Numbered from the stretch's first letter, positions 1 to 22,284 are shown. The stretch: DNA of 64,000 bases from an uncultured delta proteobacterium (GCA_963745035.1 CAVUVW010000013.1:1-64000); one strand, 5' to 3'. A program made the numbers and translations. The notes: a model not told the origin generated them from the letters alone.

Positions 1-230
1 TCCGTAGAACCGGATACCGACAAACATGAAAAACACCCGACACACGCTATCGACCTCGAAGTACTTAAGGCCATTAGAAGGACCGTCTTGTCCATCAGAC
101 GGCGGATCGATTCCGAAGACAACCGTTGGAAGTCACCTCCGGCCATCTGCCGCCCGGAAATTCAAGCAGCTCAAAAACTACTGGCCCAAATAGTGGCGAG
201 GATATTAACCAAGAAGGCAACGTAGAACAG

Positions 231-2433: not shown

Positions 2434-2625
2434 GCACGAACACAACAACAGATGTTTTTTCTGCTAATTTCGAAACGAATTACTGATCCTCACTAGTGGC
2501 GAGCACAAATTCGTCGATCTTCTTTCTTTTTTGCATATTCTTCCGCGGTCACGGACATCATTTGAACGAACTTGTTCGATACCTGATCCGCCCCGCCCCT
2601 TTTGTCTTACGCTGTGGTTGGAAAC

Positions 2626-3660: not shown

Positions 3661-3784
3661 TAGCAACTCCTCTGCGCTGCTGCCCGCTCGGTAGAATATT
3701 CATCGCGAACAAGTTCAACAAACACGCCCCGACAGGGTCGCGTGACATGATCGGCTCTAAAGTCAATCGATAGCAGATACGGAA

Positions 3785-4882
3785 CTACGCTTGCGATATT
3801 TGCAAACGCGTAGGGGGAAGCTCCACATTGATCTGTTGACCGGCGTTGATTTCGAACCAAGACGGCATTTCTCCTCTGATCAGGACCGAGCCGATCTCGA
3901 TCTCGCAGTGAAGCCGGCTGCCGACAAAAACAACTCGCTTTACAGAACCAACGAAGACATTCTGAACACCGCGGCGTTCTTCGGTGTGCAGGACGGGAGA
4001 TTCCGGACGAAACATGATCGTGACCTTTTCATTGACTCCCGTCGTTTTCGGCAGCCAGCACGACAACGCCCCGATCGGACTCTGGACGACGCCCATGCCG
4101 CCGTTGGTCGGAACCGTTTCAACCTGACCCGAGATGATATTGGCCTCGCCGACAAACTGGGCCACAAACCCATTGGTCGGTCGCAAGTAGATATCTCTCG
4201 AACTCCCGATCTGTTTCAACAATCCGTCTTGCATCACCGCAATGCGATCGGCGAGCACCAGAGCTTCTTCCTGGTCATGGGTCACAAAAATGGTCGTGAC
4301 ATGCAACCGGGTCACCAGCTCTCTTAGCTCAAGTCGCATCCCCTGGCGCAACTTGGCATCCAAGTTACTGAGCGGCTCGTCCAAAAGCAGCACCGCCGGC
4401 TCGTACACCAGAGCGCGGGCCAACGCGACCCTTTGCTGTTGTCCGCCGCTGAGAAGAGGAGCAGGACGATCGCCGAGCCCATCCATTTGGACCAAGCGGA
4501 GCGCGTTATTGACGCGCTCCTTCACTTCGCTTTTGGAAACCCGAAAGCCGCCGCGCACCAGCGGAAAAGCGACATTATCGAACACGGTCATGTGCGGCCA
4601 AATGGCGTAAGATTGAAACACCATGCCGACACCGCGCCGGTGAATCGGAACGATCAATTTCGTTTGGCCATTGTATATGGGCCTGTCGCCGATCCAGATT
4701 TCGCCGCCGTCGGGAGTTTCAAGCCCGGCGATACATCGCAACGTCGTGGTTTTACCGCAGCCAGACGGTCCGAGTAACGCAAAGACTTCTCCCGCTTGCA
4801 CCTCGAAGTCGACGCCTTCCACGGCCCCGACTTTTCCGGCCTCCGAAGTGTAAGATTTCTTCAGGTTTACGACTTTTAGCAT
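3785..4882 (-). CDS. ABC transporter ATP-binding protein (PotA/FbpC family, TOBE tail)
   Basis: Walker A GPSGCGKT, signature LSGGQQQR, Walker B LLLDEP, VTHDQ. Confidence 0.95.
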   Translation of the reverse strand: MLKVVNLKKSYTSEAGKVGAVEGVDFEVQAGEVFALLGPSGCGKTTTLRCIAGLETPDGGEIWIGDRPIYNGQTKLIVPIHRRGVGMVFQSYAIWPHMTVFDNVAFPLVRGGFRVSKSEVKERVNNALRLVQMDGLGDRPAPLLSGGQQQRVALARALVYEPAVLLLDEPLSNLDAKLRQGMRLELRELVTRLHVTTIFVTHDQEEALVLADRIAVMQDGLLKQIGSSRDIYLRPTNGFVAQFVGEANIISGQVETVPTNGGMGVVQSPIGALSCWLPKTTGVNEKVTIMFRPESPVLHTEERRGVQNVFVGSVKRVVFVGSRLHCEIEIGSVLIRGEMPSWFEINAGQQINVELPPTRLQISQA

Positions 4883-4969
4883 ACAGACAACCTTTTCCTG
4901 TTTACGATAATCTACTGTCGCGGCCCGTGAATTTCCGAAAAGACCCAATGACAACTGCGCCGTTCAGAA

Positions 4970-6748
4970 TCATGCGATCTGCTGCCCTGCACCGATCCTT
5001 CCGGTCAGTCTTTGAATAACCAGAAGCAGCACCGCCATCACAGAAATGAGCACGACGCTCACAGCCGATGCCTGAGCGACATGCCCGCTCTCCCATAACA
5101 CCCAGATTTGCGTGGCCAGCACTTTATTATTGGGTCCAAGCAACAACAACGGTATGCTCACCTCCCGGAAGACGAGTAGAGCGGTCCATAGCCCCGCAAA
5201 TGCCAGCGCAGAACCGACAAGCGGGACAATTACCCGCAGCATGGTCATCCACTTCCGCGCTCCGCAAACCGCCGCCGCGTCTTCCAGTTCCTGGCCAATC
5301 TGAATGAACGCTGCGTTGGTGATCCGCGTGCCGTAGGAGAGCCGATTCAACACGTTTGCCGCCACCATGATCCAGACCGTATTGTAAAAGGGCAGCCAAG
5401 GAAACCACCTGACTGCCAGAATCCCTAGGATCAACAGCCCGAAGGCAAACGCGAGTCCCGGGATCGCATGGGGAAGCATCGCGATCGTGTCTAGTGCTCG
5501 CCTACCGGGAAGGCGCGTACGAACCACCACCCAGGAAACCATGAAGCTGAAGAACAGCACCAAAACCGAAGTCGTCACCACCAACACCAATGTGTTCCGC
5601 ACCACTTCAAATCCGCCGATGAGAAAAAAAATATCTTCGTACCATTGCAAACTCACTAGAGATAGCGCCTGGGAAGACGGCATGCGCACGGAGGGAAGCA
5701 ACGATAACCACACCAACACCAGCAACGGTAAAAATACCGCCAAGCTCATGTACAAGAGCACAAATAGCAAACCGACGTAGCGAAACTTGCCCAGGTCGTA
5801 GGTTTTTGGCCGGTACCCTTTACCGGTGACCACCGCATAGCGATGGGACTGCTGCAAGGTGCGAAAGTAAAAATACAAAGCCAACAAACTCGGCCCGGTG
5901 ATGAGCAAACCGTAGACGCCGGCGATACCATAATTGACCGCCGCAAAACCCGCCGGCGGCCGCACGGCTACGTAAAGCCTGGTAGCCAGCACGGGGCGAT
6001 CGGCAAATCCGCCGAGCAGAGCGGCCACCTCAAAGATAGCGATGGCCGTCATGAACGTGTAAATAATACCGCCCAAAACAGCCGGCCGCAGAAGCGCCAA
6101 GGTAATCCAACGCGCGCTCCTCCACGCGCTCGCACCGGCAACAGCCGCGGCTTCTTCCAAAGCCGGGTCCATGGATCGCATGGGGCCGGACAACAAAAAA
6201 AACAACGTGGGAGTCAGCATCAGACCTTGGATAAAAGCGATGCCGCCGATACTGTTGATATCGAAGGGAGCTTGTTCAAGCTGAAAGACGCCCATCAGAA
6301 ACTGGTTGATGAGGCCCACTTGAGGGCTAAGCAATATAATCCATCCCATCGCTTTAACCAAACCAGGAACAATCACACTGACCGCGATCAGACTGATGCA
6401 GAAAGCCCGCATCGGCATGTTGGTCCGATTGAGCAACCATGCCAGCGGGAAACCAAAAAACAGGACGGTGATCACTGTCCCCAAGCCGACTAGAATGGTG
6501 TTGGGGATCACCTGGGTAAAAAGCGCGCGATCCAGTGTCTTGATATAGTTGTCCAGTCCCAGGCGCAGCTCGAACGGCCGCCCGGGGTTGAAGCTCGCCC
6601 AGAAGATGATCAAAGAAACGGCTAAGACAGCGATACAGATAAGCCATGCAAAAAAATAAGCCGCCGCGTTTCCGCCGGCGAATTTCTCCCAAACTCGGCT
6701 CGTCCATGCCGTCGCTTCGAACCGCTGTAGTGACTGAACTCTTTCCAT
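4970..6748 (-). CDS. ABC transporter permease, FbpB/ThiP-type with two fused membrane domains
   Basis: About 590 aa, hydrophobic, two EAA loops (LEEAAAVAGA; LEDAAAVCGA), linker VVTGKGYRP. Confidence 0.93.
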   Translation of the reverse strand: MERVQSLQRFEATAWTSRVWEKFAGGNAAAYFFAWLICIAVLAVSLIIFWASFNPGRPFELRLGLDNYIKTLDRALFTQVIPNTILVGLGTVITVLFFGFPLAWLLNRTNMPMRAFCISLIAVSVIVPGLVKAMGWIILLSPQVGLINQFLMGVFQLEQAPFDINSIGGIAFIQGLMLTPTLFFLLSGPMRSMDPALEEAAAVAGASAWRSARWITLALLRPAVLGGIIYTFMTAIAIFEVAALLGGFADRPVLATRLYVAVRPPAGFAAVNYGIAGVYGLLITGPSLLALYFYFRTLQQSHRYAVVTGKGYRPKTYDLGKFRYVGLLFVLLYMSLAVFLPLLVLVWLSLLPSVRMPSSQALSLVSLQWYEDIFFLIGGFEVVRNTLVLVVTTSVLVLFFSFMVSWVVVRTRLPGRRALDTIAMLPHAIPGLAFAFGLLILGILAVRWFPWLPFYNTVWIMVAANVLNRLSYGTRITNAAFIQIGQELEDAAAVCGARKWMTMLRVIVPLVGSALAFAGLWTALLVFREVSIPLLLLGPNNKVLATQIWVLWESGHVAQASAVSVVLISVMAVLLLVIQRLTGRIGAGQQIA

Positions 6749-6768
6749 TGCCAAACTGAGATGTTTCC

Positions 6769-7944
6769 TTACTTGCCCTCTCGCTGGGCGCGGTCTAACG
6801 CTTGTCCGTAGTTTTTCCCTTCCGGAGTTTCATACCAAAGAAACGCCGATAGGTTCTTCGGGCTGTCAAACCAAGTGATCGGATCGATGCGGCGCTTTTG
6901 TAATTCGCTCAACTCACCATTGGATATCCGCCCTGTGCCGAGATAGATGTTCGGGTGAGATGCGTGCTCCTGAAAGAGCTGACTGGCCTCTTCGCTCGTC
7001 GACCACAAAGTAAACAAGCTGGCGGCGTTGGGATGGCGCGTTCCTTCGAGCACGACATTCATAGCCCGATGCAGATTCGTTATATCCTGGAAAAAAGAAA
7101 GCCCGATGGGCGCATTTGCATCCAAGGCTTTTTGTTCAAAGTAATAGTAGGCGTTGGCATACAAGAATGACAATTCACCCAGTAGCAGCCGCTCGATTCC
7201 GGCGGCAAAAGCAAGCATATGCCCTTTGTTCCGTCCCCAGGATCTGACGGTATCGAGCCACTCGTTCTTGTCATATTTCAGGATTCCAAACATGGCTGTC
7301 GTAATCCACGGCGGCAGCGAGTACATCCCTTTGTATTTCGCATGCCCGTACTCTATGCGTGTTTTTGGCAGGTCCTTTTCAGAGATTCGCTTGGGATTGT
7401 AGAGGAGCGCGTCGGTTCGCGTGGCAAACGTGAAGCCAAATCCATCGAAAGGCGCGGGACTCAGTTTGTTCCTGACCTCGTAAGCCTTCGGATTGATCTC
7501 CTTCAAGAGCATTTCCCAGTTATCGATTCGTTTTATCGCGCGACCCTCCTTTAGCAGAAGCACTGCTTCATCCACAAAGTACCGGACATCGAAGCTTGGG
7601 GTGATACCGGCTTCGTGCTCCGCTATCGCTTTGTGCGCGTCTCCGGCAGAGCCTCTGCTGAGATCGATACTGATGCTCATATTGTCCAGACCGAACCGTC
7701 GCTTGAAAGCATCGGCCAGCGCTTTACCACCTTTCGCGCCCTGACTCGAAACCAGTGACAAGGTAAGGCGCCCTTCCCGACGCGCGCCCTCTACCAGTTG
7801 CTTCATCGATTGACTTACGGTTACGCGGCTGTCCGCAGCTGGTTTGCCTTGGGCACGACTACGGCCTGCGCCCAGCGCCAGGAGAAAGGTGGTTGCCAGG
7901 GTGGCCGCGACTAATGCTCTAAGATGTCGCTTCGAATCTCTCAT
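6769..7944 (-). CDS. ABC substrate-binding protein (Fe3+/thiamine/polyamine-type family)
   Basis: Signal-peptide-like N-terminus, EGARREG, LLYNPK, HPNAASLF. Lies in the ABC operon. Confidence 0.85.
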   Translation of the reverse strand: MRDSKRHLRALVAATLATTFLLALGAGRSRAQGKPAADSRVTVSQSMKQLVEGARREGRLTLSLVSSQGAKGGKALADAFKRRFGLDNMSISIDLSRGSAGDAHKAIAEHEAGITPSFDVRYFVDEAVLLLKEGRAIKRIDNWEMLLKEINPKAYEVRNKLSPAPFDGFGFTFATRTDALLYNPKRISEKDLPKTRIEYGHAKYKGMYSLPPWITTAMFGILKYDKNEWLDTVRSWGRNKGHMLAFAAGIERLLLGELSFLYANAYYYFEQKALDANAPIGLSFFQDITNLHRAMNVVLEGTRHPNAASLFTLWSTSEEASQLFQEHASHPNIYLGTGRISNGELSELQKRRIDPITWFDSPKNLSAFLWYETPEGKNYGQALDRAQREGK

Positions 7945-8015
7945 AACGTCCCTCGCCACGGCCGGTTTCTCCTCGATTTTTGAGAATCCGCCGGGACATC
8001 GCCACACGCCACAAA

Positions 8016-9164
8016 TCACTTGCCCTCGCGCTGCGCCCGGTCTATCGCTTGCGCGTATTTTTTCCCTTCGGGGGTTTCATACCAAAGGAACTCTTTCACG
8101 GTCTGGGGACTATCGAACCAGGTGATCGGCTTGATGTTTCGTTTCTCCAATTCGCTCACGATCGCAGTGGACAGCGGTCCCTTTTTTCCCAAGTACACGT
8201 TGGGCGCATAGGAATATTTTTGAAACACCAGGCTAGCCTCCTCGCCGATAGACCATAGGGTAAACAGCTTCGCCGCATTGGGATGCCGCGCCCCTTCCAG
8301 CACGACGTTCATGGCGCGATGCAGGGTTGTTAAATCCTCGAAAAACGAAAGCCCGATAGGTGCCTTAGGATCGCGATCTTTCTCCGCGTAATAATAGTAG
8401 GCGTTGGCCGATAGGAAGGCCAATTCGCCCAGGAGCAATCGATCGATGCCGGCGTTGAAAGCGAGCATGTGGCCTTTGTTTCGCCCCCACGACCTGACGA
8501 CGTTCAACCATTCGTCCTTGTCATACTTGAGAGTGCCGATGATCGCTCTCGTGATCCAAGGAGGCACCGAGTATTTTCCCTTGTATTTAGGGTTGCCGTA
8601 CTCTGTCAGTGTCTTGGGCAGCTCCTCCCTGGCAATCAGTTTCGGATTGTACAAGAGCGCGTTGGTTCGAGTGGCCCATGTAAACGCGTAGCCGTCAAAA
8701 GGTGCAGGGCTGAGTTTATCCCTCACCTTGTGGGCCTCCGGGGCAATCTCCGCCAGAATCGATTGCCAATTGTCGATTCGATTGATAGCTCCGGCATCTT
8801 TTAGGAGGAGTACGGCTTCGTCGACGAAATACATCGCATCGAAGGTTGGCGGAATGCCTGATTGATGCTCGGCTATGGCCTTATGCGCATCGCCCGCGGT
8901 GCCCTGGTTGAGATCGAAGGTGATCTTCATATCACCCAAACCAAACCGTCGTTTAAACGCTTCCCCGAGAGCTTCTCCTCCTTTGGCGCCCTGGCTGGTC
9001 ACGACAGTCACGTTCAACCGGCCCTCTTTGCGGGCTCCTTCGACGAGCGCCTTCAGCCCGGCCCCTTGGGCGCTCGCCGCATGCGCCGTAGACGGCATCG
9101 ATCCCGCGACGGCAAAGAGTCCCCACAAGCCTGCGGTGATCCAAGATTTAACCGGAGAAGTCAT
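8016..9164 (-). CDS. ABC substrate-binding protein, close paralog of 6769-7944
   Basis: Signal peptide ending AHA, EGARKEG, HPNAAKLF. Shares long stretches and the C-terminus RAQREGK with its neighbour. Confidence 0.87.
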   Translation of the reverse strand: MTSPVKSWITAGLWGLFAVAGSMPSTAHAASAQGAGLKALVEGARKEGRLNVTVVTSQGAKGGEALGEAFKRRFGLGDMKITFDLNQGTAGDAHKAIAEHQSGIPPTFDAMYFVDEAVLLLKDAGAINRIDNWQSILAEIAPEAHKVRDKLSPAPFDGYAFTWATRTNALLYNPKLIAREELPKTLTEYGNPKYKGKYSVPPWITRAIIGTLKYDKDEWLNVVRSWGRNKGHMLAFNAGIDRLLLGELAFLSANAYYYYAEKDRDPKAPIGLSFFEDLTTLHRAMNVVLEGARHPNAAKLFTLWSIGEEASLVFQKYSYAPNVYLGKKGPLSTAIVSELEKRNIKPITWFDSPQTVKEFLWYETPEGKKYAQAIDRAQREGK

Positions 9165-9232
9165 GAAAAACTTCCTCCCTAAGCGCGGTTCTCTTTTGCT
9201 TCCGAAATCTCTGTTGCACGCTTGCCTTCGCT

Positions 9233-11039
9233 TCAAATTCTTGTTTGTTGCTCTGTCTGGGCAATCTTTTGACCCGTAAGGTGTTGGGCGAGGAGAATGA
9301 TTGCGCTCATGACCAACACCATGACAACTCCCAGCGCGGAGGCTTCATTGAGACCGCCGCTTTCCCACTTGGCCCAGATCCGAACTGATAAGACTTGATT
9401 TTCAGGTCCGGCAAGCATCAGGGGCATGGAGACTTCACGAAACACCAATAGCCCGGTCCACAATCCGCCGAACACCAACGACGAGCGCACCAGCGGCGCC
9501 ACCACCCACCACATCGTCCCCAAGCGCCGCGCCCCGCATACCTGCGCCGACTCCTCCAACTCCCGCCCCACCTGCAACAATGCCGCGTTGGTGATCCGCG
9601 TCACGTACGACAGCCGATTGACCACATTGGCCAAAATGATGATCCCAAGCGTTTGGTACAAAGGTAGCCACGGCAGCCACTTCGCCGCCACGATCGCCAC
9701 CACCGTCAACGCAAACGCAAACCCCAGCCCCGGTATCGCGTGCGGCAGCATGGCAATCGTATCGATGACTTTTCTCCCCTTGACCCGCATCCGCACCACC
9801 ACCCAGGAAATCATGAAACTGAAAAACAGCACCACTATCGGCGTGACGATCGTCAATACGATCGTATTCACAATGACGTCCACCCCGCCGATCACGTCCA
9901 TGATCCCGTGGTACCAACGCAAGCTCACCAACGATAACGCTTCAGCGGAAGGCATCGCCAAATGCGGGAGCAAAGACGCCCACACCAACACCACCAACGG
10001 CAACACCACCGCCAACAGTAAATACAATCCGACAAACGCCGAAGCCATCATCCGCCCGCGCCCCAACTCAAAGTCCCTCGGCCGGTACCCCTTCCCCGTC
10101 ACCACCACATACCGATGCCCCCGCTCGATCACGCGCAGATAATAATAAAGCGCCACAAAACTCGGCACCGCGATCATCAACCCGTACACTCCCGGACATC
10201 CCGTAACGAGGAATACCGGCCGCATCGCCAATCGGATTGGTATTCAGGAATAGTTCGGTGGCGAGGACGGGAGTCTTACCGATGCCGCCCAACAACGCCG
10301 CCACTTCGAATATCGATATCGCCGTCATGAACGTGTAGATCGCTCCGCCCAAAATCGCCGGCCACAACACCGGCAAACTCACCCACCACATCGTCCGCCA
10401 TACCGTCGCCCCGCTCACCTGCGCCGCTTCCTCCAGCGCAGGATCCATCGACCGCATCGGCCCCGCCAACAAAAAAAACATCGTCGGCGTCAGCATCAAC
10501 CCCTGCACAAACGCCACTCCCCACACGTTGTCGATCGCCAACGGCGCCTGGCTCATCCCAAACACGTACATCAAAAACTTGTTGATCAGCCCAATCTTCG
10601 GACTGAGCAACATCACCCACCCCATCGCCTTCAAAAACCCCGGCACGATCACCGCCACCGCGATCAACGTGATCCACAACTCCCGATACGGCACATCGGT
10701 CCGATGCAACAACCAGGCTAAGGGAACACTGAAAAACAACACCACCGCCACCGTCCCCAATCCCACCATCGCCGTGTTCGGGATCACCCGCCGAAACAAA
10801 TATCCGTCGAACGCATCCACGTAATTCTGCAACGTCATGTCCGGCTGCGTCGGCACTCCCGCCACAAAGCTCATCCACACCACGAACAACACCAGCAACA
10901 GCACCACCCCACAGCCAAACCACGCAAAAAAAAGCGGCAGACGCACGCTCACAAATTCGCCTGCCGCCTCCGCGAGCCCTTGGCTCTTGTTAGACCATGC
11001 TACTGAGACAGCACCTTCCGCGGCGGGATCGTTCCTCAT
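9233..11039 (-). CDS. ABC permease (fused two-domain), one apparent frameshift near 10190
   Basis: ORFs 10068-11039 and 9233-10231 together match the intact permease 12245-14020. One extra base at ~10190 relative to that copy. Confidence 0.9.
9405..10972. repeat. Direct repeat copy A (permease core), nearly identical to 12405-13971
   Basis: Line-by-line identity at offset 3000, changing to 2999 after ~10190. Confidence 0.95.
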
Positions 11040-11060
11040 GCGCCCATTCTCATCACGCGT

Positions 11061-12197
11061 TTAGCGTCGGCCGGTGCGCGCCTTGGCCATTTCAGCGACG
11101 TAGCGCTTGCCTTCCTCGGTTCGATAATACCAAAGGAGCTTTTCCAGGCCCTCCTTGCTGTCGAACCAGCTCACCGGTTTGATATTTTTTTCCTTCATTA
11201 GGGTATTGAGCTGTTTTGAAATCGGCCCGGTGCCCAAAACGAGATTGGGACTGGTGATGTAATCGACTTCAAAAAACCGGTTGGCCTCAGGCGTCGTCGT
11301 CCACAGAGTAAAGAGTTTCGCCGCATTCGGGTTCTTGGCGTTCTTGCGAACCATGTGAAACACATACGAGTTGGCGGTGAGATCTTTGAAGAAACTGACG
11401 CCGATCGGCGCCTTGGGATTTTTTCCTTTGACCTCGAAAATATATTCGCCATTGGACGGTAGGAATTTGAACTCGCCCAACAACATCCGCTGCACGCCCG
11501 CCTCGTACGTCATGATTGCGGGATTCAACGCGCCCCAGGTCCGGACAATCTCCATCCACTTGTCCCTGGGGTAAATCAACGTGCCGAATTCAGCGTCGGT
11601 CACGAAGGGCGACAGCGAGAACGCACCCTTGTATTTTGGATTGCCCAAATCGGCGATGGTTTGAGGAAGCTCCGCTTCGGTAATCAGATCCGTATTGTAG
11701 TTCAAGCATTTGATCCGATTTGCCCAGAGGAAAGCATACCCCGCGATATCCAAAGGGCTGACTTTCTGCCGCACCGCGTAAGCCTCCGGTGAGATTTCTT
11801 TCAATATCGCTTCCCAATTGTCGACCCGTTCCAAACCGTCGGCTTCCTTCACTTCGAACGCTCGGTGATCGGGGCCATATAACACGTCGAACGTCGGAGG
11901 AATTCCACTTTTGCTTTCAACGATCGCTTTGGAGAACACCGTGGAGATATTCCCCGAGACATCGGCATTGATGCGCAGGTTCAATCCGAACCGCTTGTTG
12001 AATACCTGTGATATCGCTTTTGCGCCGTCGGTGCCCAGGGAGGATACCGGGTACCAGTTGAGCTGACCCTCCTTACGCGCGCCCTCGATCAACTGCTGCA
12101 GAGTTGGCGGCGCCTGCGCGCCGGACTTGGAAACCGGCCCGAATAAACCGGCGACGACTATCACAGAAAGCATCGCACGCCTAACCGTTCGTCTCAT
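11061..12197 (-). CDS. ABC substrate-binding protein
   Basis: GGAGG RBS, signal peptide, EGARKEG, NYNTDLI, NPNAAKLF. Paralog of 14048-15199. Confidence 0.87.
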   Translation of the reverse strand: MRRTVRRAMLSVIVVAGLFGPVSKSGAQAPPTLQQLIEGARKEGQLNWYPVSSLGTDGAKAISQVFNKRFGLNLRINADVSGNISTVFSKAIVESKSGIPPTFDVLYGPDHRAFEVKEADGLERVDNWEAILKEISPEAYAVRQKVSPLDIAGYAFLWANRIKCLNYNTDLITEAELPQTIADLGNPKYKGAFSLSPFVTDAEFGTLIYPRDKWMEIVRTWGALNPAIMTYEAGVQRMLLGEFKFLPSNGEYIFEVKGKNPKAPIGVSFFKDLTANSYVFHMVRKNAKNPNAAKLFTLWTTTPEANRFFEVDYITSPNLVLGTGPISKQLNTLMKEKNIKPVSWFDSKEGLEKLLWYYRTEEGKRYVAEMAKARTGRR

Positions 12198-12244
12198 GAA
12201 ACACCTCCAGGATGAACATTGAATATGACTGACGCATGGTACAA

Positions 12245-14020
12245 TTAACGCGAGCCCTCGGCGAACCTCCAACCCCATTGCCGCTGAGCGAGAGTGGCGA
12301 TGACACCCATCACGAGCACCATGAGCACGCCTAAAGCCGAAGCCTCACTGAAGTGGCCCTGGTCCCAGGTTTGCCAAACGCGCACAGAAAGCACTTGAGT
12401 TTTCGGTCCGGCAAGCATCAGGGGCATGGAGACTTCGCGAAACACCAATAGTCCGGTCCACAATCCGCCGAACACCAACGACGAGCGCACCAACGGCGCC
12501 ACCACCCACCACATCGTCCCCAAGCGCCGCGCGCCGCATACCTGCGCCGACTCCTCCAACTCCCGCCCCACCTGCAACAGCGCCGCATTGGTGATCCGCG
12601 TCACGTACGACAGCCGATTGACCACATTGGCCAAAATGATGATCCCAATCGTTTGGTACAAAGGCAGCCACGGCAGCCACTTCGCCGCCACGATCGCCAC
12701 CACCGTCAACGCAAACGCAAACCCCAACCCCGGTATCGCGTGCGGCAGCATGGCAATCGTATCGATGACTTTTCTCCCCTTGACCCGCATCCGCACCACC
12801 ACCCAGGAAATCATGAAACTGAAAAACAGCACCACTATCGGCGTGACGATCGTCAATATGATCGTATTCACAATCACATTCACCCCGCCGATCACGTCCA
12901 TGATCCCGTGGTACCAACGCAAGCTCACCAACGATAGCGCTTCGACTGACGGCATCATCAAGCGCGGCAATAGAGACGCCCATACCAACACCACCAACGG
13001 CAACACCACCGCCAAAAGCAAATACAATCCGACAAACCCCGAAGCCATCATCCGCCCGCGCCCCAACTCAAAGTCCCTCGGCCGGTACCCCTTCCCCGTC
13101 ACCACCACATACCGATGCCCCCGCTCGATCACGCGCAGATAATAATAAAGCGCCACAAAACTCGGCACCGCGATCATCAACCCGTACACCCCGGACATTC
13201 CGTAACGGGGAATCATAGACTCGGTTTGAAGCGGCCGTACATTCAGGAACAGTTCGGTGGCGAGGACGGGAGTCTTACCGATGCCGCCCAACAACGCCGC
13301 CACCTCGAATATCGATATCGCCGTCATGAACGTGTAGATCGCTCCGCCCAAGATCGCCGGCCACAACACCGGCAAACTCACCCACCACATCGTCCGCCAT
13401 ACCGTCGCCCCGCTCACCTGCGCCGCTTCCTCCAGCGCAGGATCCATCGACCGCATCGGCCCCGCCAACAAAAAAAACATCGTCGGCGTCAGCATCAACC
13501 CCTGCACAAACGCCACTCCCCACACGTTGTCGATCGCCAACGGCGCCTGGCTCATCCCAAACACGTACATCAAAAACTTGTTGATCAGCCCAATCTTCGG
13601 ACTGAGCAACATCACCCACCCCATCGCCTTCAAAAACCCCGGCACGATCACCGCCACCGCGATCAACGTGATCCACAACTCCCGATACGGCACATCGGTC
13701 CGATGCAACAACCAGGCTAAGGGAACACTGAAAAACAACACCACCGCCACCGTCCCCAATCCCACCATCGCCGTGTTCGGGATCACCCGCCGAAACAAAT
13801 ATCCGTCGAACGCATCCACGTAATTCTGCAACGTCATGTCCGGCTGCGTCGGCACTCCCGCCACAAAGCTCATCCACACCACGAACAACACCAGCAACAG
13901 CACCACCCCACAGCCAAACCACGCAAAAAAAAGCGGCAGACGCACACTCACAAATTCGCCTGCCGCCTCCGTCCAATGGGTCGAACGGATCCCTCTGATG
14001 GCGATGCTTTCGTCAACCAT
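12245..14020 (-). CDS. ABC permease (fused two-domain), intact
   Basis: 591 aa, two EAA motifs (LEEAAQVSGA, LEESAQVCGA). Confidence 0.93.
   Translation of the reverse strand: MVDESIAIRGIRSTHWTEAAGEFVSVRLPLFFAWFGCGVVLLLVLFVVWMSFVAGVPTQPDMTLQNYVDAFDGYLFRRVIPNTAMVGLGTVAVVLFFSVPLAWLLHRTDVPYRELWITLIAVAVIVPGFLKAMGWVMLLSPKIGLINKFLMYVFGMSQAPLAIDNVWGVAFVQGLMLTPTMFFLLAGPMRSMDPALEEAAQVSGATVWRTMWWVSLPVLWPAILGGAIYTFMTAISIFEVAALLGGIGKTPVLATELFLNVRPLQTESMIPRYGMSGVYGLMIAVPSFVALYYYLRVIERGHRYVVVTGKGYRPRDFELGRGRMMASGFVGLYLLLAVVLPLVVLVWASLLPRLMMPSVEALSLVSLRWYHGIMDVIGGVNVIVNTIILTIVTPIVVLFFSFMISWVVVRMRVKGRKVIDTIAMLPHAIPGLGFAFALTVVAIVAAKWLPWLPLYQTIGIIILANVVNRLSYVTRITNAALLQVGRELEESAQVCGARRLGTMWWVVAPLVRSSLVFGGLWTGLLVFREVSMPLMLAGPKTQVLSVRVWQTWDQGHFSEASALGVLMVLVMGVIATLAQRQWGWRFAEGSR
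12405..13971. repeat. Direct repeat copy B (permease core), nearly identical to 9405-10972
   Basis: Direct sequence comparison with copy A. Confidence 0.95.
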
Positions 14021-14047
14021 AAGTGCGACCGGAAGGAGCTTTCACAC

Positions 14048-15199
14048 TTATTTCCTTCCGGTCTGAGCTGCGGAGAGCTCGCGGCTGTATGCCCGGCCCT
14101 CGTCGGTTGCGTACCATCGCAGTAAGTCTTGATTCTTCTTGCTATCCCACCAACTGACCGGTTTGATATTCTCCTTGTCCAAGGCCTGGCTAATCTGGCG
14201 CGACATCGGCCCCGTCTTCAAGAGCAGGTTTCCCGTTGCCGCGTAGTCGAGATTTTCAAAGATCCGATTGGCCTCTGAAGTTGTCGCCCATAATGCGAAC
14301 AGCTTTGCGGCGTTGGGACTCTTGGCGCCTTTTCTAACCACGTGCCAGGCGTAAGTGAGCGGCGTTAGATCGTTGTAGAAGGCTAGACCCATGGGCGTTT
14401 TGGGATCTCTGCTTTTATATTTAAACACGTAGTAGTCGTTACTCTGGGCAAACTTGAACTCGCCCAAGAGCATTCTTTGTAAGCCCGCGTCGTAGGCAAG
14501 AATCGTCGGCTTCGACTTGCCCCAGGTGCGCACGACCTCGAGCCACTTGTCCTTGGGATAGACGAGAATTCCATATTCGGCATCCGTGATAAACGGCGGC
14601 ATGAAGTACATGCCGGCATATTTCGCATCGCCCATTTCGACGCGGGTTTTTGGCAGGTCTTTGGCGGCGATCAAATCCGTATTGTAGTTCATGACCTTGG
14701 CTCGAGTGCCCCAGGCAAAAGCGTAGCCGTTCAAATCCAACGGACTGACTTTATCTCGAACGGCGTAGGCTTCGGGCGAGATTTCCTTCAATAGCTCCTC
14801 CCAGCCCTCGACCCGTTCAACGGCGCCTTCAGCGAGCATTTGGAAGACAAAAGTTTCGCTCACGTACATGCCATCGAAGCTCGATGGCAAGCCCATCTTC
14901 AGTTCCTGAACGGTTTGGGAAAACTGCCGTGACGCGTCGCCCAACGTGCTGTTGAACTTTACGTTCAGGCCAAAGCGTTTATTGAAAGCTTGATTGAGTT
15001 CCTTCGCGCCGCGGTCGGTAAGCGATGTCACCAAGAAAAGATTCACCTGGCCTTCTTTGCGGGCGCCGTCGACCAGTTGTTGCACCGGGCGCGGCTTCGA
15101 AGGTTGTTCCGCGGCAACCGCCAAACCGCTGAAGATGAGCTGCAAGCTCACCACTGCAGAAATCACTACTGTCAAACCAGCTCTTTGCGCGCGCCTCAT
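14048..15199 (-). CDS. ABC substrate-binding protein
   Basis: GGAGG RBS, signal peptide, DGARKEG, SPNAAKLF. Confidence 0.87.
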   Translation of the reverse strand: MRRAQRAGLTVVISAVVSLQLIFSGLAVAAEQPSKPRPVQQLVDGARKEGQVNLFLVTSLTDRGAKELNQAFNKRFGLNVKFNSTLGDASRQFSQTVQELKMGLPSSFDGMYVSETFVFQMLAEGAVERVEGWEELLKEISPEAYAVRDKVSPLDLNGYAFAWGTRAKVMNYNTDLIAAKDLPKTRVEMGDAKYAGMYFMPPFITDAEYGILVYPKDKWLEVVRTWGKSKPTILAYDAGLQRMLLGEFKFAQSNDYYVFKYKSRDPKTPMGLAFYNDLTPLTYAWHVVRKGAKSPNAAKLFALWATTSEANRIFENLDYAATGNLLLKTGPMSRQISQALDKENIKPVSWWDSKKNQDLLRWYATDEGRAYSRELSAAQTGRK

Positions 15200-15384
15200 A
15201 CGGGGTCCTCCGGCGTCAAACAATCATCACTGGCCTTGGATAAAAAATGTATCTCATCCAAAGGCTCATACTTGCTCATGAACGAAGCAGATGCGTGCGA
15301 AGCCATTTGCGACTCGCGAGCTACACTCAAGGTTCGGAAACAGCCATAAAATCAAATCCGTTCCTGTGCTTGATTCTTCCTTGT

Positions 15385-16791
15385 CTAGTTAATCTTCTGC
15401 GCCGGCCTGATGAAATCAGGAACTTTCTCAACGCCCGGCACCTTGACGAGCTCAGGAAACTCTCTTCCGAAGGGCCGGGTCGCATCAATGCCCATGCCGC
15501 TGGAAGTCAATTCAGGCGCCAACCCGTCGGATGTGCCGCTGGCGCTTGCGCCTCCCCTGGGTCCGGACGGATCGAGCGCAATCTCCGTGAGATTGGACAA
15601 TATGATGACGTCCTCCGCGGGTTGAAATCGAGTCATCGTTGCCCACACGACCTGCTCGATATTTCGTATGTCGATATCGTCTTCGACTGCGATCACGCTC
15701 TTTACCGAAGGTTTATTGCTCAACATGTAGCTAATAACGTTGCGTGCTTCGAACTTCGAAGTCGGCCTCATCGAGACCACAGCGAGAAGCGCTTGTGCGC
15801 CGGCTGCCGGGAGATGAACCTCTTTGACGCCGGGAAACTTTTGTCGCAGATCCCATGTCAGCATCGGTTCCAAGCAGATTTGTTTCAAGATGTGGTTTTC
15901 AGTTGTCGGCATTCCTGTAAGACCCGCCAGAAAAATCGGTTTTTGCCGATGGGTGATGGCGGTAACTTGAACGATCGGTTTCGGTATGGCCGGATTATAA
16001 TATCCCGGGTATTCGCCGAATGGACCTTCCATCTCTCGGACGTTTGGCAAAGCGATTCCTTCGATGACGATCTCCGCAGTCGCCGGGACCTCCAGGTCAC
16101 AGGTTTTCGCTTTGACAAGCTCAACCGGCGCGCCGCGCAATCCGCCGGCCATGTTAAGTTCATCGACTCCGTAGGGAGCCTTGTAGCCCGCCGCAATGAG
16201 CAGCGCCGGATCGACGCCGAGAGCGATAGCGACGGGAACTCCTTTTCCCTTACGCTCGGCTTTCGCAAGATGTACCCGGACGGTTTGAGCGGAAATTCCG
16301 AGACGGTTCTTGCCCTTGAGTTCATTGCGATAAAGTCCCATGTTGCGAATACCGGTTTCTGGATCCTTGCTGATGGTCACTCCCATCGTAATGTAGGGGG
16401 CGCTGTCTTTCTCCGAGTAAAGTGGGATAGGAAGCTTGTAAAGATCGACGTTGTCTCCCTCATAGACGACCTCCTGGCAAGGACCGCTATCCACCATGCG
16501 CGGTGGGATCGGATTTTGGATGCCATCGATCATTGTCTTGCTTATTTCATCAACACCGCATTGAAGCGCATGGGCTGCGCCTTGAATTGTGGCGAATAAT
16601 CCTCCAGCGACCTGCATGTCATGACCTTTGACATTCTCGAACAGAAGTCCCGGTCCCTGTTGGTCGCTGGTCTTTCGAATATACGCCGCGATTTCGTATC
16701 GTGTTTCGACCTCTTTCTCGACTCTGATTAAGTGCCCCATCTCACCCAGATAGTTGAGAAACTGCCGCATGTCTGAAAATGCCTTGGCCAT
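15385..16791 (-). CDS. UbiD-family (prFMN-dependent) decarboxylase
   Basis: KDPETGIRNMGLYR, VPATAEIVIEG, EGPFGEYPGYY, VEDDID, LDPS, GIDAT motifs. Confidence 0.93.
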   Translation of the reverse strand: MAKAFSDMRQFLNYLGEMGHLIRVEKEVETRYEIAAYIRKTSDQQGPGLLFENVKGHDMQVAGGLFATIQGAAHALQCGVDEISKTMIDGIQNPIPPRMVDSGPCQEVVYEGDNVDLYKLPIPLYSEKDSAPYITMGVTISKDPETGIRNMGLYRNELKGKNRLGISAQTVRVHLAKAERKGKGVPVAIALGVDPALLIAAGYKAPYGVDELNMAGGLRGAPVELVKAKTCDLEVPATAEIVIEGIALPNVREMEGPFGEYPGYYNPAIPKPIVQVTAITHRQKPIFLAGLTGMPTTENHILKQICLEPMLTWDLRQKFPGVKEVHLPAAGAQALLAVVSMRPTSKFEARNVISYMLSNKPSVKSVIAVEDDIDIRNIEQVVWATMTRFQPAEDVIILSNLTEIALDPSGPRGGASASGTSDGLAPELTSSGMGIDATRPFGREFPELVKVPGVEKVPDFIRPAQKIN

Positions 16792-20820: not shown

Positions 20821-20996
20821 CTCTTTACCTGTTTGCGAGAAACCATCGGCAGCGGCATGACTCCGTCCAGTCCGTCGATGAAAAGCTGCTGGAACAGCAC
20901 GTTGGCTTCCTCGGCCTGTTGCGCGATGCGCTGGATCTCTTCCTCGTTCAGTCCCAATCGATATTGCTCGCTGATCTGTCTGACCGCTTCCTTCAT
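20817..20996 (-). CDS. 59-aa small protein, probable GatC/AtzG-like amidase partner (not in the ORF track)
   Basis: Manual translation MKEAVRQISEQYRLGLNEEEIQRIAQQAEEANVLFQQLFIDGLDGVMPLPMVSRKQVKR. ATGA overlaps with both the upstream Rieske stop and the amidase start. Confidence 0.75.
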   Translation of the reverse strand: MKEAVRQISEQYRLGLNEEEIQRIAQQAEEANVLFQQLFIDGLDGVMPLPMVSRKQVKR

Positions 20997-22284
20997 GATG
21001 CTCCGTTCATTTGTACTCTGGTCTCGACTTCGGTCTTCACGTAATCTCTCCAGTTCTTATCGCCCGGCACGACTTCGCTGGTGGAGACGATCCGAAACTG
21101 GTTCATCTTCGGATCGCGCACGACGTTCTTCGGCTCCCGGCCCTCCTGTAGGTCGCGAATCGCCTTGATGCGCAGTTTGCGCGCGACCACGATCGGCATA
21201 TCGCTCGAGGCGAGATGCTCCTGGGTGCGGTCCTGGATATAGCCGGCTCCTTCAATCACGCACAGATCTTGCGCGCCGAAGTTGCGCGCGATGCCGCAAT
21301 ACCATTCCTTTTTCATCGACTCGCGATCCTGTTCATAGCGATTCGATTTGTTGCGCATCGACCTGAAGTCCGGCGTCATCTCGGTGCGCATCCTGCGGGT
21401 GCCTTCCTTATCGAGTGCTTGCTGCCGGTCAAAAACCCAGGTGAACTTCCAGTGGTGCCGATCATCGATCGGGCACATGCCAATTGATGCCGTAACTCCC
21501 CATCGGGCTGGGGAATGCGATAAAATTGGGTAGCACGAATTCATTGACCTGGAGATGATATTCGTCAGGACCACGGTCGCGCCGAATCCGAAAATTTCGC
21601 ACGCCATAGTCGGTCAGCTCCGCATCCATCATCTCGAGACCCGGGGCCGCACCGCGCTTGTTGAGAGGTTTCGTCAGGATCTCAGTGCCGTTCGGTTTCA
21701 TGTTGGAGAGGCCGCTGTTGTAGTAGGTGTAATGAAGAAAACTGAGATGAGGAATGTCGAAGCTGCCTTCGTTCATCTGCAAGTAATTCGCTTCGTGAAA
21801 AAACTTGTCCGCATAGGTCCGCTCTGCCGGCGCCATGAGAAATTCATAATTCGGAAACAGCGGCGGCTCCCCAGGTCCCATGTACGCGAATATCCCTCCC
21901 GCCTGCTCATGACACGGATAGGCCGTGTGCTGGATCTGCTCGCCGATGCTCTCCTCCCCCAGGCTCCCACGGCTGGTCCAAACATCTCCCCTGCTTATCG
22001 AACAGCCAACCATGATAAATGCACCGCAGTCCGCCCTCTTCCACTCGCCCATAACTCAAGTCCGCGCCCCGATGCGGACAATGGATCCCCAACAATCCCA
22101 GCTTTCCCTGTTCATCGCGGTACAAAACCAACTCTTCGCCCATGATCTTGACAGGTATCGGCGCGCCCCCTTCGGGCAGCTCTTCGGACAGCGCCACCGG
22201 CTGCCAGTAGCGCCGCATCAACTCCCCCATCGGCGTGCCGCGATCGGTCTGCGTCAGTAAATCATTCTCTTCTTGGGTCATCAT
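20993..22284 (-). CDS. Rieske oxygenase paralog 2, apparent frameshifts
   Basis: Same Rieske and Fe motifs across ORFs 21907-22284, 21462-22052 and 20993-21607. Confidence 0.9.

What the first reader, a model, noticed from the sequence alone, without database searches (positions are those of the whole stretch)
9405..13971. Extreme strand-compositional skew confined to the homogenised repeat segments
Seen: the repeated permease core is C/A-rich on the plus strand. Hand counts of two illustrative lines: 10861-10920 has C28 A24 G6 T2; 10741-10800 has C28 A15 G10 T7. The roughly equivalent stretch of the third, non-repeated permease (6601-6660) has C9 G13. The shared Rieske N-terminus is skewed the same way (22021-22080: C28 G12). 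The skew therefore seems to follow the repeated segments rather than protein hydrophobicity, giving GTG/GGG/TTG-rich codons. Inference: the homogenising process may carry its own mutational or repair bias (strand-biased heteroduplex resolution or an ssDNA intermediate). I do not know of a described mechanism with this signature.
Basis: partly seen in the sequence, partly recalled or inferred. Interest (0 to 1): 0.78.

Follow-up and report, generated by a model that had tools for sequence, protein, structure and literature searches.

The report
Skewed, recoded repeat in transporter genes
Two neighbouring copies of a membrane transporter gene share a near-identical 1.6-kb core whose silent codon positions are almost all G, which fits a known but unexplained class of skewed, gene-converting repeats called GRINS.

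Summary
The two tracts (9390-10972, 12389-13971) are the cores of two tandem fused ABC-importer permease genes on the minus strand. They are the two most GC-skewed stretches of the 7.4-Mb genome. The A/T half of the skew is ordinary membrane-protein composition. The G-over-C half is not: about 82% of fourfold-degenerate sites are G, against 36% genome-wide. Neither amino acids, replication strand, protein family nor transfer explains it.

The skew is older than the present homogenisation. Metagenome relatives at 72-81% protein identity keep it although their fourfold sites have turned over. Two lineages each homogenise the same two blocks independently. One relative whose array collapsed to a single copy has lost most of the skew.

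Other repeats and mosaic tracts in this genome are not skewed, so a bias inherent to homogenisation in general is not supported.

Best reading: a new GRINS member in which skew and inter-copy conversion are linked. The direction of cause is unresolved.

The parts
12389..13971 (-). GRINS copy in permease gene P3: the homogenised, G-recoded core
   Evidence: 96.3% identical to 9390-10972. Mean |GC skew| 0.34 and mean |TA skew| 0.31 in 150-nt windows, r +0.53. Fourfold skew 0.67.
9390..10972 (-). GRINS copy in permease gene P2
   Evidence: Mean |GC skew| 0.33 and mean |TA skew| 0.31, r +0.45. Fourfold skew 0.64 on the called part.
12245..14020 (-). P3, a fused two-domain ABC importer permease of 591 aa
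   Evidence: Two BPD_transp_1 stretches. 58% identical to P1. NCBIfam hits only below cut-off; best is PhnU2 at 120 bits against a cut-off of 593.
9233..11039 (-). P2, the same permease read as two ORFs (10068-11039 and 9233-10231) because of one extra base at 10190 relative to P3
   Evidence: Whether the extra base is real is unresolved.
13181..13300 (-). Central dip in G3 inside P3 (P2: about 10181-10300). It holds a ~27-nt copy-specific patch at 13214-13240 (P2: 10215-10241).
   Evidence: Fourfold sites C10 G9. Alignment. The dip is present in all lineages. Two patch types are shared across lineages.
12245..12388 (-). Copy-specific, unskewed 3' end of P3. The unskewed stretch starts at about codon 511 (about 12490), inside the repeat.
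   Evidence: P2 versus P3 70.8% identical over codons 511-591, which stay orthologous across lineages. G at 17-35% of fourfold sites.
4970..6754 (-). P1, the third paralogous permease, not homogenised; the comparator
   Evidence: Fourfold skew 0.19. Mean |GC skew| 0.105 but mean |TA skew| 0.30.
14048..15223 (-). SBPd, the binding-protein gene upstream of P3
   Evidence: SBP_bac_8. Fourfold skew -0.19. Only ~74% identical in patches to SBPc.
11061..12278 (-). SBPc, the binding-protein gene between P3 and P2
   Evidence: Homologous to the SBP genes, with no Pfam hit at E 0.001. Fourfold skew -0.02.
6769..9236 (-). SBPa (6769-8019) and SBPb (8016-9236), further binding-protein genes of the operon
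   Evidence: Fourfold skew 0.04 and -0.01.
3785..4954 (-). The only ABC ATPase gene of the cluster
   Evidence: ABC_tran. Fourfold skew -0.03.
21944..22243 (-). Rieske/LigXa-like oxygenase N-terminal homogenised tract. Other copies lie at 29034-29333 and, over its first part, 18992-19291. It is a milder, shorter skewed repeat.
   Evidence: 97% identical between copies 2 and 3 inside genes that are 86.5% identical overall. GC skew 0.34 against 0.12 expected; fourfold skew 0.35-0.39 on 46 sites. Too short for the GRINS length criterion.

Best explanation

Shown:
- A unit of binding-protein gene plus fused ABC-importer permease gene was duplicated in tandem before at least two soil lineages split.
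- Two blocks of the permease (about codons 31-240 and 276-510) are kept nearly identical by recurrent gene conversion in each lineage.
- The first ~30 codons, a 9-codon linker patch and the last ~80 codons stay copy-specific.
- Inside the converted blocks almost every free position on the sense strand has been driven to G and away from C. About 82% of fourfold sites are G. TTG is used over CTG and TTT over TTC. Val is used in place of Ile, Leu and Phe.
- The T-over-A half of the skew is plain membrane-protein composition.
- The G-over-C half is a long-standing property of this permease lineage that is actively maintained. It is not a scar of the latest conversion.

Inferred: skew and conversion sustain each other. 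A low-complexity sense strand rich in G runs makes the cores recombine more readily. This is what the GRINS authors propose, and what has been proposed for the GC-skewed vls cassettes of Borrelia. Conversion then spreads and preserves the recoded sequence. When the array collapses to one copy, the skew decays.

Unknown: what first pushes the sites to G.

My confidence by part is about 0.85 that this is a GRINS and a maintained trait of the clade, about 0.55 that the skew is tied to inter-copy recombination, and about 0.35 that the skew is the cause rather than the product.
For: GRINS criteria are met. The tract is 1583 bp at 96.3% identity. Mean |GC skew| is 0.33-0.34 and mean |TA skew| 0.31 in 150-nt windows. 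The two skews correlate at r +0.45 and +0.53, against +0.07 in P1 and -0.06 in the rest of the window. GC skew is largest at codon position 3: 0.61, against 0.36 at position 1 and -0.05 at position 2. Val is enriched, 65 against 37-46 in unskewed homologues.

The usual explanations fail:
- Amino acids: skew 0.31 observed against 0.05 expected.
- Membrane proteins: 275 genes with GRAVY above 0.6 average -0.03.
- Protein family: 70 other BPD_transp_1 genes average -0.04, and 18 other fused ones reach at most 0.19. All 37 homologue rows from species genomes lie between -0.15 and +0.21.
- Replication strand: + and - strand genes within 300 kb average -0.071 and -0.079.

The skew is a clade trait. 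Of 22 metagenome rows at 72% protein identity or more, 18 have fourfold skew 0.42-0.84. The SBP, ATPase and P1-type genes on the contigs with a skewed permease lie between -0.26 and +0.23. The profile along the gene, with its central dip and its fall at the 3' end, recurs across lineages.

The skew is maintained. Identity at shared fourfold sites between lineages is about what composition alone gives: 0.705 against 0.641, and 0.562 against 0.554.

Concerted evolution occurs in two lineages. Block 1 is 99.7% identical (P2/P3) and 99.0% identical (L040/L048) within a lineage but 84% between lineages. The 3' ends are 71% and 67.5% identical within a lineage yet remain orthologous across lineages.

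There is a link to copy number. L044 reads SBPd-type, permease, SBPb, SBPa, which is a collapsed array. It groups with the two skewed tandem lineages (89/89), is the closest of all to ours in protein (84%), and has tract skew of only 0.31.

A precedent exists. vls cassettes have a mean coding-strand GC skew of 0.52 that is conserved, and the non-converting homologue vlsH lacks it (PMC11499132, passages).
Against: - Lineage C (L041/L043/L052, one locus) and L047 show no second permease within about 4 kb upstream or within 0.4-2 kb downstream. They still have tract skew 0.65 and 0.61. Their contigs are short, so a copy elsewhere is not excluded.
- Part of the central unskewed stretch is identical between the copies, so conversion and skew do not coincide base for base.
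- In lineages B and C the unconverted ends are moderately skewed (about 0.3-0.46), so the boundaries are sharp only in this genome.
- The tracts hold no canonical G-quadruplex motif.
- The L044 case is a single event, and its placement has only 89/89 support.
- The TA criterion of GRINS is met here for a trivial reason. P1 has the same TA skew without being a GRINS. At fourfold sites T is depleted, not enriched.
- Nothing here measures recombination rate.
Confidence: 0.55

Rival explanations
1. The skew is a by-product of the homogenising process itself. A strand-asymmetric bias in heteroduplex repair or in recombination-associated synthesis favours G on the sense strand, so every round of conversion pushes free sites to G.
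For: - Skew and converted blocks co-localise inside one gene: 190 of 233 fourfold sites are G inside the blocks against 29 of 88 outside.
- The two lineages with proven concerted evolution have the strongest skew, 0.74-0.83.
- The collapsed single-copy L044 has 0.31.
- A second homogenised tract in the window (Rieske N-terminus) is also skewed beyond its amino acids.
- Among within-lineage variants at fourfold sites, the minor allele replaces a majority G in 30 cases and creates a G in 15. This fits a force that favours G acting against mutation, but selection would give the same result.
Against: - No such bias shows in 92 other repeated segments (mean -0.02, maximum 0.39).
- Nor does it show in 25 other mosaic high-identity tracts, whose difference from their own flanks averages -0.004, with 9 up and 16 down.
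- An identical but unskewed stretch lies inside the tract.
- Base-specific mismatch glycosylases act symmetrically on the two strands, so they give GC enrichment and not G-over-C. This point rests on established knowledge and was not tested here.
- The ssDNA cytosine-deamination signature (a gain of T) is absent: T is 3% of fourfold sites against 12% genome-wide.
- Lineages C and L047 are skewed with no visible partner.
Confidence: 0.2
2. Selection on the transcript or on its translation, unrelated to recombination. One form is a C-poor, G-rich mRNA that offers no loading site to the Rho terminator. That would let a weakly translated permease gene in the middle of a long operon be transcribed through to the downstream SBP, P1 and ATPase genes. 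Another form is NNG-biased translation control. Conversion would then be confined to these blocks only because constrained silent sites keep the copies alike.
For: - The pattern looks like pressure at the nucleotide level to maximise G minus C. It acts at all free positions, including the first position of Leu codons and the choice of Val. That fits a composition-reading process better than tRNA adaptation.
- The skew is conserved while silent sites turn over.
- P2 and P3 lie upstream of six and four further operon genes.
- That Rho prefers C-rich, G-poor RNA is recalled knowledge. My literature search for a link to codon use listed 2 papers, neither on this point.
Against: - L044 keeps its mid-operon position (SBPd, permease, SBPb, SBPa) but has lost most of the skew.
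- In L047 the skewed permease is the last gene before an opposite-strand gene.
- About 70 other ABC permease genes in the genome show no such skew.
- This reading gives no reason for the skew to stop at codon ~510 and to dip at codons 241-275.
- No expression or termination data are available.
Confidence: 0.12
3. Recent transfer of the permease core from a donor with G-rich codon usage, pasted into both genes.
For: - The tract has higher GC3 (0.79) than the genome mean (0.71).
- The sharp boundaries resemble a recombination joint.
Against: - The whole locus co-diverges with its flanks in relatives. SBP genes are 72-83% identical and sit in the same order.
- The skew is present in several lineages whose silent sites are saturated relative to each other.
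- No homologue in 61 related genomes or in the species collection is closer than 65%, and none of those is skewed.
- There is no plasmid match.
- I know of no genome with ~80% G at fourfold sites (recalled, not searched).
Confidence: 0.03

Closest known systems
[quoted passage not shown]
   Same: - A duplicated coding segment longer than 500 bp and more than 80% identical, with mean |GC| and |TA| skew above 0.15. It also exceeds the 25% figure given in PMC10394414 (passages).
- The two skews are positively correlated.
- The skew is strongest at third codon positions.
- Val is enriched.
- Copies are more alike within a genome than between related genomes, which indicates gene conversion.
- The encoded protein stays functional-looking.
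   Different: - The host gene is an ABC-importer permease in an uncultured soil bacterium of the same order as a genome titled Candidatus Binatia. It is not a polyketide synthase or a transposase of the five phyla surveyed there.
- The TA skew is explained by membrane-protein amino acids and is shared by the non-GRINS paralogue.
- At fourfold sites only G rises while T falls. The transition-only tautomer model sketched in that paper predicts a rise in both.
- The skew has one sign throughout.
- The skew persists across lineages with saturated silent sites, which is older than the 'recent activity' described for PKS GRINS.
- Which other gene families the paper lists is in its SI Appendix, which I could not see.
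vls antigenic-variation cassettes of Lyme-disease Borrelia (PMC11499132, passages read)
   Same: - A gene-conversion substrate with a pronounced, conserved coding-strand GC skew (mean 0.52) and clustered G runs.
- The non-converting homologue lacks the skew, as P1 and L044 do here.
- No conserved G4 arrangement.
   Different: - There is no expression site with an array of silent cassettes.
- Conversion here homogenises a constant core and does not diversify variable regions.
- The organism is a free-living soil bacterium and the product is a transporter, so there is no immune-evasion role.
GC-biased gene conversion in bacteria (recalled concept; my search listed 5 papers, none read)
   Same: Recombining sequence has raised GC3: 0.79 against a genome mean of 0.71.
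   Different: gBGC is symmetric between strands and raises G and C alike. Here C falls to about 10% of fourfold sites while G rises to about 82%.

Membership tests
GRINS (PMC8256042) | Duplicated region longer than 500 bp | tested here: met
   1583 bp in each copy.
GRINS (PMC8256042) | More than 80% DNA identity to another region of the same cluster or genome | tested here: met
   96.3% over 1587 columns, with copies 3 kb apart in one operon. I measured this with BLAST, not with the authors' pipeline of 150-nt windows.
GRINS (PMC8256042) | Mean absolute GC skew and mean absolute TA skew above 0.15 (150-nt windows, step 30) | tested here: met
   |GC| 0.332 and 0.340; |TA| 0.310 and 0.306. The TA part is also 0.30 in the non-repeated paralogue P1, so here it reflects amino-acid composition.
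GRINS (PMC8256042) | GC and TA skews correlated across windows (paper: r 0.70 in GRINS, 0.09 outside) | tested here: met
   r +0.45 and +0.53 in the tracts, +0.07 in P1 and -0.06 in 14021-64000. This is weaker than the paper's average.
GRINS (PMC8256042) | Skew most marked at third codon positions | tested here: inconclusive
   Met for GC skew: position 3 is 0.61, position 1 is 0.36 and position 2 is -0.05. Not met for TA skew. It rests on T at position 2, and at fourfold sites T (8) does not exceed A (12).
GRINS (PMC8256042) | Amino-acid shift towards Gly, Val, Cys and Trp and away from Pro, Thr, His and Gln in positively skewed regions | tested here: inconclusive
   Val 65 against 37-46, Trp 17 against 12-15, Gly 35 against 30-32. 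Cys, Pro, Thr and His show no clear change.
GRINS (PMC8256042) | Signs of gene conversion (paralogous copies closer than orthologues) | tested here: met
   Block 1 is 99.7% and 99.0% identical within lineages against 84% between them. The 3' ends remain orthologous.
vls-type segmental gene-conversion system | One expression site plus a contiguous array of promoterless silent cassettes; conversion diversifies variable regions | tested here: not met
   Both copies are full-length genes in one operon, each with its own SBP gene. Conversion homogenises the core.
vls-type segmental gene-conversion system | High, conserved coding-strand GC skew confined to the converting DNA | tested here: met
Replication-strand compositional asymmetry | The sign and size of silent-site skew follow the replichore and are shared by neighbouring genes on the same strand | tested here: not met
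   41 other minus-strand genes of the window average -0.069. + and - strand genes within 300 kb average -0.071 and -0.079.
Transcription- or ssDNA-associated cytosine deamination | C is lost to T on the exposed strand, so T rises at fourfold sites | tested here: not met
   In the tract blocks of P3 the fourfold sites are G190 C23 A12 T8, so T is 3.4% against 11.9% genome-wide.
GC-biased gene conversion | G and C both enriched, with no strand asymmetry | tested here: not met
   C is depleted to about 10% from a genome value of 43%.

The most novel reading that the evidence does not exclude
Inter-copy recombination itself generates or is required for the skew. On this reading a strand-asymmetric, G-favouring conversion bias operates at this locus, the skew builds up while two or more copies convert, and it decays once the array collapses to one copy, as in L044. 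That would give GRINS their first mechanism and would be a form of biased gene conversion not described so far.
Probability: 0.2. Interest if true: 0.85.

Novelty: new member of a known kind. Interest (0 to 1): 0.55.

Why it matters
GRINS were described in 2021, almost entirely from polyketide synthase genes, and their origin and maintenance were left open.

This locus is a clean, small example in an unrelated gene (a transporter permease) and in an uncultured soil lineage. It comes with a natural series of relatives:
- two lineages that convert the same blocks independently;
- lineages with no visible second copy that are still skewed;
- one collapsed array that has lost most of the skew.

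The series shows three things:
- The skew outlasts complete turnover of silent sites, so some force maintains it.
- The force is G-over-C. It is not the joint G-and-T gain expected from the transition model sketched for GRINS.
- It is not a general property of repeats in the same genome.

This makes the question 'does skew drive conversion or does conversion drive skew' testable with a 5-kb cassette.

For annotation, it warns that extreme codon usage in one gene need not mean transfer.

Tried and rejected
- **Amino-acid composition or hydrophobicity as the cause of the G/C skew.** Rejected. G at fourfold sites is 85% in predicted membrane segments and 80% in loops of the tract.
- **Family trait.** Rejected.
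- **Replichore effect.** Rejected.
- **Transfer.** Rejected as above. There is no plasmid match.
- **G-quadruplex motifs.** The genome holds 88 canonical motifs and none lies in the first 16 kb of the contig. G runs of 3 or more are 25-26 per kb in the tracts, against 9.8 genome-wide and 14 in P1.
- **R-loop-forming-sequence test.** I used a definition recalled from memory. It gives 104 sites genome-wide, of which 6 lie in this window. All 6 are on the coding strand: 3 lie in the permease tracts and the other 3 in or just beside the three Rieske N-terminal tracts. However, only 3 of the 104 fall in the 2.4% of the genome that is repeated, all 3 of them in the permease tracts, so there is no general enrichment. 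The Rieske sites are Gly/Glu codons. I treat this as a hint only.
- **Overlapping genes.** Long open frames on the same strand (+2 frame) and on the antisense strand follow from the composition: G at position 3 removes stop codons. The antisense product would be His/Gln/Arg/Pro-rich. I did not pursue this.
- **RNA families.** None at E 0.1 in 2000-16000.
- **Promoter- and terminator-like sites.** Not above the shuffled expectation.
- **The genome's second outlier.** C15:359395-360321 is a DppB-like permease with fourfold skew 0.57. It is single-copy and has a different signature (CTG 40 against TTG 7, TTC over TTT, GC3 0.88), so it is not a replicate of this phenomenon.
- **First mosaic-tract scan on called genes.** It was too strict and found 1 case. 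I replaced it with the genome-level scan. In that scan strand and frame were chosen automatically, and at least one pair received opposite strands, so single rows are unreliable.
- **Polarising within-lineage variants by majority rule.** The result is 30 G-to-other against 15 other-to-G. The method is weak, and the rows mix paralogues and strains.
- **Laying public runs.** This was meant to settle the extra base at 10190. Two contigs of one DNA run lack a base at 10190, and one contig of an RNA-library run lacks a base at 10194. Those contigs carry 9-13 other differences and may be P3 or relatives. Contigs of two metatranscriptome libraries cover 18 of 30 bins each. That shows presence in an RNA library and is no proof of transcription.
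- **Copy number in lineages C, L047 and L051.** It could not be settled from short contigs.
- **The tree.** It used 14 rows. Left out were P2 (split), the partial rows L049, L050, L053, L058_0, L060_3, L060_4, L070, L072, L073 and L076, and the duplicates L041, L052 and L046.
- **Unpublished genomes.** Two of the 37 rows (L026 from G035, L033 from G005) come from unpublished genomes. No claim depends on them.
- **Supplements.** Those of PMC8256042 (gene families with GRINS, codon-position figures) were not available to me.

Full report
**What is there**

The window is the first 64 kb of contig 13 of a 7.4-Mb, 28-contig genome assembled from a metagenome (92.6% complete, 5.8% contamination). 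A genome of the same order holds the same record as one titled 'uncultured Candidatus Binatia bacterium'.

On the minus strand lies one long transporter operon. Its order is:
- SBPd (14048-15223)
- permease P3 (12245-14020)
- SBPc (11061-12278)
- permease P2 (9233-11039)
- SBPb (8016-9236)
- SBPa (6769-8019)
- permease P1 (4970-6754)
- the only ATPase gene (3785-4954)

The permeases are fused two-domain proteins of about 590 aa with two BPD_transp_1 domains. NCBIfam gives only sub-threshold hits, the best being PhnU2 at 120 bits against a cut-off of 593. P3 and P1 are 58% identical. The surrounding genes point to aromatic catabolism: LigXa-like Rieske oxygenases, LigB, UbiD, an amidase and a molybdenum hydroxylase.

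**The observation**

The repeat is 9390-10972 against 12389-13971, 96.3% identical over 1587 columns. The SBP genes beside it match only in patches of about 74%. About 540 nt of coding sequence are 100% identical.

The two tracts are the two most GC-skewed regions among 74,112 windows of 600 nt in the genome. Splitting the skew by cause gives a clear result:
- The T-over-A skew of P3 is 0.30, close to the 0.25 its amino acids predict. The unrepeated P1 has the same value.
- The G-over-C skew is 0.31 against 0.05 expected.

At fourfold sites P3 has skew +0.60. That is rank 1 of 4414 genes of at least 200 aa (mean -0.080, SD 0.125). The called part of P2 ranks third.

Within P3, G fills 190 of 233 fourfold sites inside the two homogenised blocks and 29 of 88 outside them (P 5e-16). 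Membrane segments (85% G) and loops (80% G) do not differ.

The codon pattern favours G and avoids C at every free position:
- GTG 61 of 74 Val, GCG 38 of 45 Ala, GGG 25 of 44 Gly.
- TTG 46 against CTG 16.
- TTT 20 against TTC 9.

T and A at fourfold sites fall rather than rise. The counts are G190 C23 A12 T8, against genome shares of G 36%, C 43%, A 9% and T 12%. The pressure reaches amino acids too. Val numbers 65 in the tract, against 37-46 in unskewed homologues, at the expense of Ile, Leu, Phe and Ser. Position-1 skew is 0.36 against 0.12-0.22.

**Controls**

| Control group | n | Fourfold GC skew |
|---|---|---|
| Membrane proteins (GRAVY above 0.6) | 275 genes | mean -0.03 |
| Other BPD_transp_1 permease genes of the genome | 70 genes | mean -0.04, SD 0.16 |
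| Other fused permeases | 18 genes | maximum 0.19 |
| Other minus-strand genes of the window | 41 genes | mean -0.07 |
| Homologues in related and species genomes (65% identity or less) | 37 rows | -0.15 to +0.21 |

Within 300 kb the two strands do not differ. Two of the 37 homologue rows come from unpublished genomes (G005, G035) and are not needed for the claim. So hydrophobicity, family, replication strand and local context are all excluded.

**Relatives**

A metagenome scan returned 38 loci.
- Of 22 permease rows at 72% protein identity or more, 18 have fourfold skew 0.42-0.84.
- The four exceptions are L076, which covers only the unskewed 3' end; L044 (0.25); and L045 and L046, one sequence (0.23).
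- The 18 rows at 59% or less lie between -0.20 and +0.33, and 17 of them are at or below 0.12.
- On the contigs that hold a skewed permease, the SBP, ATPase and P1-type genes lie between -0.26 and +0.23.

The profile of G at fourfold sites along the gene recurs across lineages. It is high in codons 31-240, dips at 241-270, is high again to about 510 and is low after that.

Between lineages the shared fourfold sites are no more alike than composition predicts: 0.705 observed against 0.641 expected for our lineage against lineage B, and 0.562 against 0.554 against lineage C. The silent sites have therefore turned over while G-richness was kept. The skew is maintained by a force acting now, and it is not left over from one event.

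**Concerted evolution**

In the last 81 codons P3 groups with the P3-type ends of other lineages and P2 with the P2-type ends. P2 against P3 is only 70.8% identical there, and L040 against L048 in lineage B is 67.5%. So the duplication predates the split of lineages A (ours) and B.

In block 1 (codons 31-240) P2 and P3 are 99.7% identical and L040 and L048 are 99.0%, but the lineages differ by 16%. Block 2 behaves likewise, at 95.9% and 88-100%. Lineage B has at least three units.

The 9-codon linker patch exists in two types that are shared across lineages and swapped between positions. For example, the P3-position gene of L039 carries the P2-type patch.

**Link to copy number**

L044 reads SBPd-type, permease, SBPb, SBPa. 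Its upstream SBP is 72% identical to SBPd against 51% to SBPc, and its permease 3' end is P2-type. It is therefore an array collapsed to one hybrid copy.

In protein it is the closest of all non-A lineages to ours (84%), and it groups with A and B (89/89). Its tract skew is 0.31, against 0.74-0.83 for A and B and 0.60-0.65 for the outgroups C, L051 and L047. Parsimony makes this a secondary loss. It is one event only.

Against a strict dependence on a partner stand two cases. Lineage C (L041, L043 and L052 are one locus) and L047 show no second permease within about 4 kb upstream or within 0.4-2 kb downstream. The contigs are short, so this is not decisive.

**Is the bias a property of homogenisation in general?**

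No.
- The 92 other repeated segments (at least 250 bp, at least 88% identical, at least 50 fourfold sites) average -0.02 (SD 0.15, maximum 0.39).
- A genome-wide scan looked for mosaic tracts of at least 200 nt at 97% identity or more, inside alignments whose remainder is 90% identical or less. It gave 25 usable cases outside the window. Tract minus remainder averaged -0.004, with 9 positive and 16 negative. Frame and strand were chosen automatically in that scan, so single rows are unreliable.
- Inside the permease tract itself, most of the central unskewed stretch is identical between the copies.

The Rieske N-terminal tract is a real second case in the window. Its GC skew is 0.34 against 0.12 expected, an excess reached by 0.02% of 5000 random 99-codon segments. 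Its fourfold skew is 0.35-0.39 on 46 sites. It is short and milder.

**What is known**

[quoted passage not shown] I read its Results, Discussion and Methods. The definition is:
- a duplicated region longer than 500 bp;
- more than 80% identity to another region;
- mean absolute GC and TA skews above 0.15 in 150-nt windows.

The described properties are correlated skews, greatest intensity at third codon positions, enrichment of Gly, Val, Cys and Trp, and gene conversion between copies. The authors report GRINS across phyla and in other gene families, mostly transposases. They state that origin and persistence are unknown. They suggest an error-prone, tautomer-based transition bias (C to T, A to G), followed by easier conversion of low-complexity sequence.

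Applied here, both tracts pass with |GC| 0.33-0.34, |TA| 0.31 and r +0.45 and +0.53. P1, the SBP genes, the ATPase gene and the rest of the window fail on GC skew. Of 106 repeated segments of at least 500 bp in the genome, 5 pass: these two, and three borderline ones with |GC| 0.155-0.178.

Later papers that cite GRINS, in the listing and in the passages I read, deal with polyketide and peptide synthetases. I saw no mechanism and no transporter case.

A second precedent is the vls cassette region of Lyme-disease Borrelia. Its coding-strand GC skew averages 0.52 and is conserved. The non-converting homologue vlsH lacks it, and the skew is thought to serve conversion (PMC11499132, passages).

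**Mechanism**

Shown: a maintained, sense-strand G-over-C pressure on all free sites of two blocks that also undergo recurrent conversion in at least two lineages.

Inferred: the two are coupled. I favour the GRINS and vls view that the skewed sequence, rich in G runs (25 runs of GGG or longer per kb against 9.8 genome-wide), raises inter-copy recombination, and that conversion preserves the recoded state. I favour it because homogenisation elsewhere in this genome leaves no skew, and because I know of no repair bias that yields pyrimidine-to-G changes on one strand.

It would explain L044 equally well.

The fourfold-site spectrum (G up, T down) does not fit deamination. It also does not fit the transition-only model sketched for GRINS. 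At twofold sites the shifts (T over C, G over A) do fit that model.

A transcript-level selection such as Rho avoidance fits the 'maximise G minus C' pattern. But L044 keeps its mid-operon place and still lost the skew, and the boundaries inside the gene would be unexplained.

**Verdict**

The thing is a new member, in a new gene family and a new lineage, of a known but mechanistically open class. Its main value is the comparative series, which makes the cause-or-effect question testable.

Noticed in passing
window 19376-20820, 20993-22284, 28094-29374: Several genes beside the operon are read as overlapping ORF pieces: an amidase in three pieces and two LigXa-like Rieske oxygenases in three pieces each. 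P2 is split by one base as well. The cause is either indel errors of the assembly or a cluster of decaying genes.
   Followed up: partly
G000 C15:359395-360321 (outside the window): A single-copy DppB-like ABC permease has the genome's second-highest fourfold GC skew (0.57), with GC3 0.88. It uses CTG (40) over TTG (7) and TTC over TTT, which is a different signature. It lies near a contig end among repeats and a chimeric-looking neighbour gene, so it may be foreign.
   Followed up: partly
window 13214-13240 and 10215-10241; L039, L040, L042, L044, L048, L051: The 9-codon linker patch between the two permease halves occurs in two old types (VRPLQTESM-like and TNPIGDAAG-like). Both are found in several lineages and are exchanged between the P2 and P3 positions. 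It looks like a polymorphism across lineages that conversion shuffles.
   Followed up: partly
G000 C13:1060811-1063581 (outside the window): An internally repetitive 2.2-2.4 kb stretch (copies 84-87% identical, with short 97% tracts) shows fourfold GC skew of about -0.6 to -0.7 on the automatically chosen strand and frame. It is either a second skewed repeat of opposite sign or a wrong strand call.
   Followed up: no
G000 contigs C3, C6, C7; window 4-1891 versus C11:325347-327223: Contigs C3, C6 and C7 overlap over 10-14 kb at 94-98% identity. The start of the window repeats the end of contig 11 at 94.5%. This points to strain mixture or uncollapsed variants in the assembled genome.
   Followed up: no
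window 8900-11300: Contigs from two rhizosphere metatranscriptome libraries cover 18 of 30 bins of the P2 region, and one 177-nt piece has no differences. The locus is present in RNA libraries, which may also hold DNA.
   Followed up: partly
L042, L048, L060 (lineage B): The related lineage carries at least three tandem units of binding-protein gene plus permease. Two of the SBPc-type units are about 96% identical over the binding-protein gene as well, so unit number varies between lineages.
   Followed up: partly
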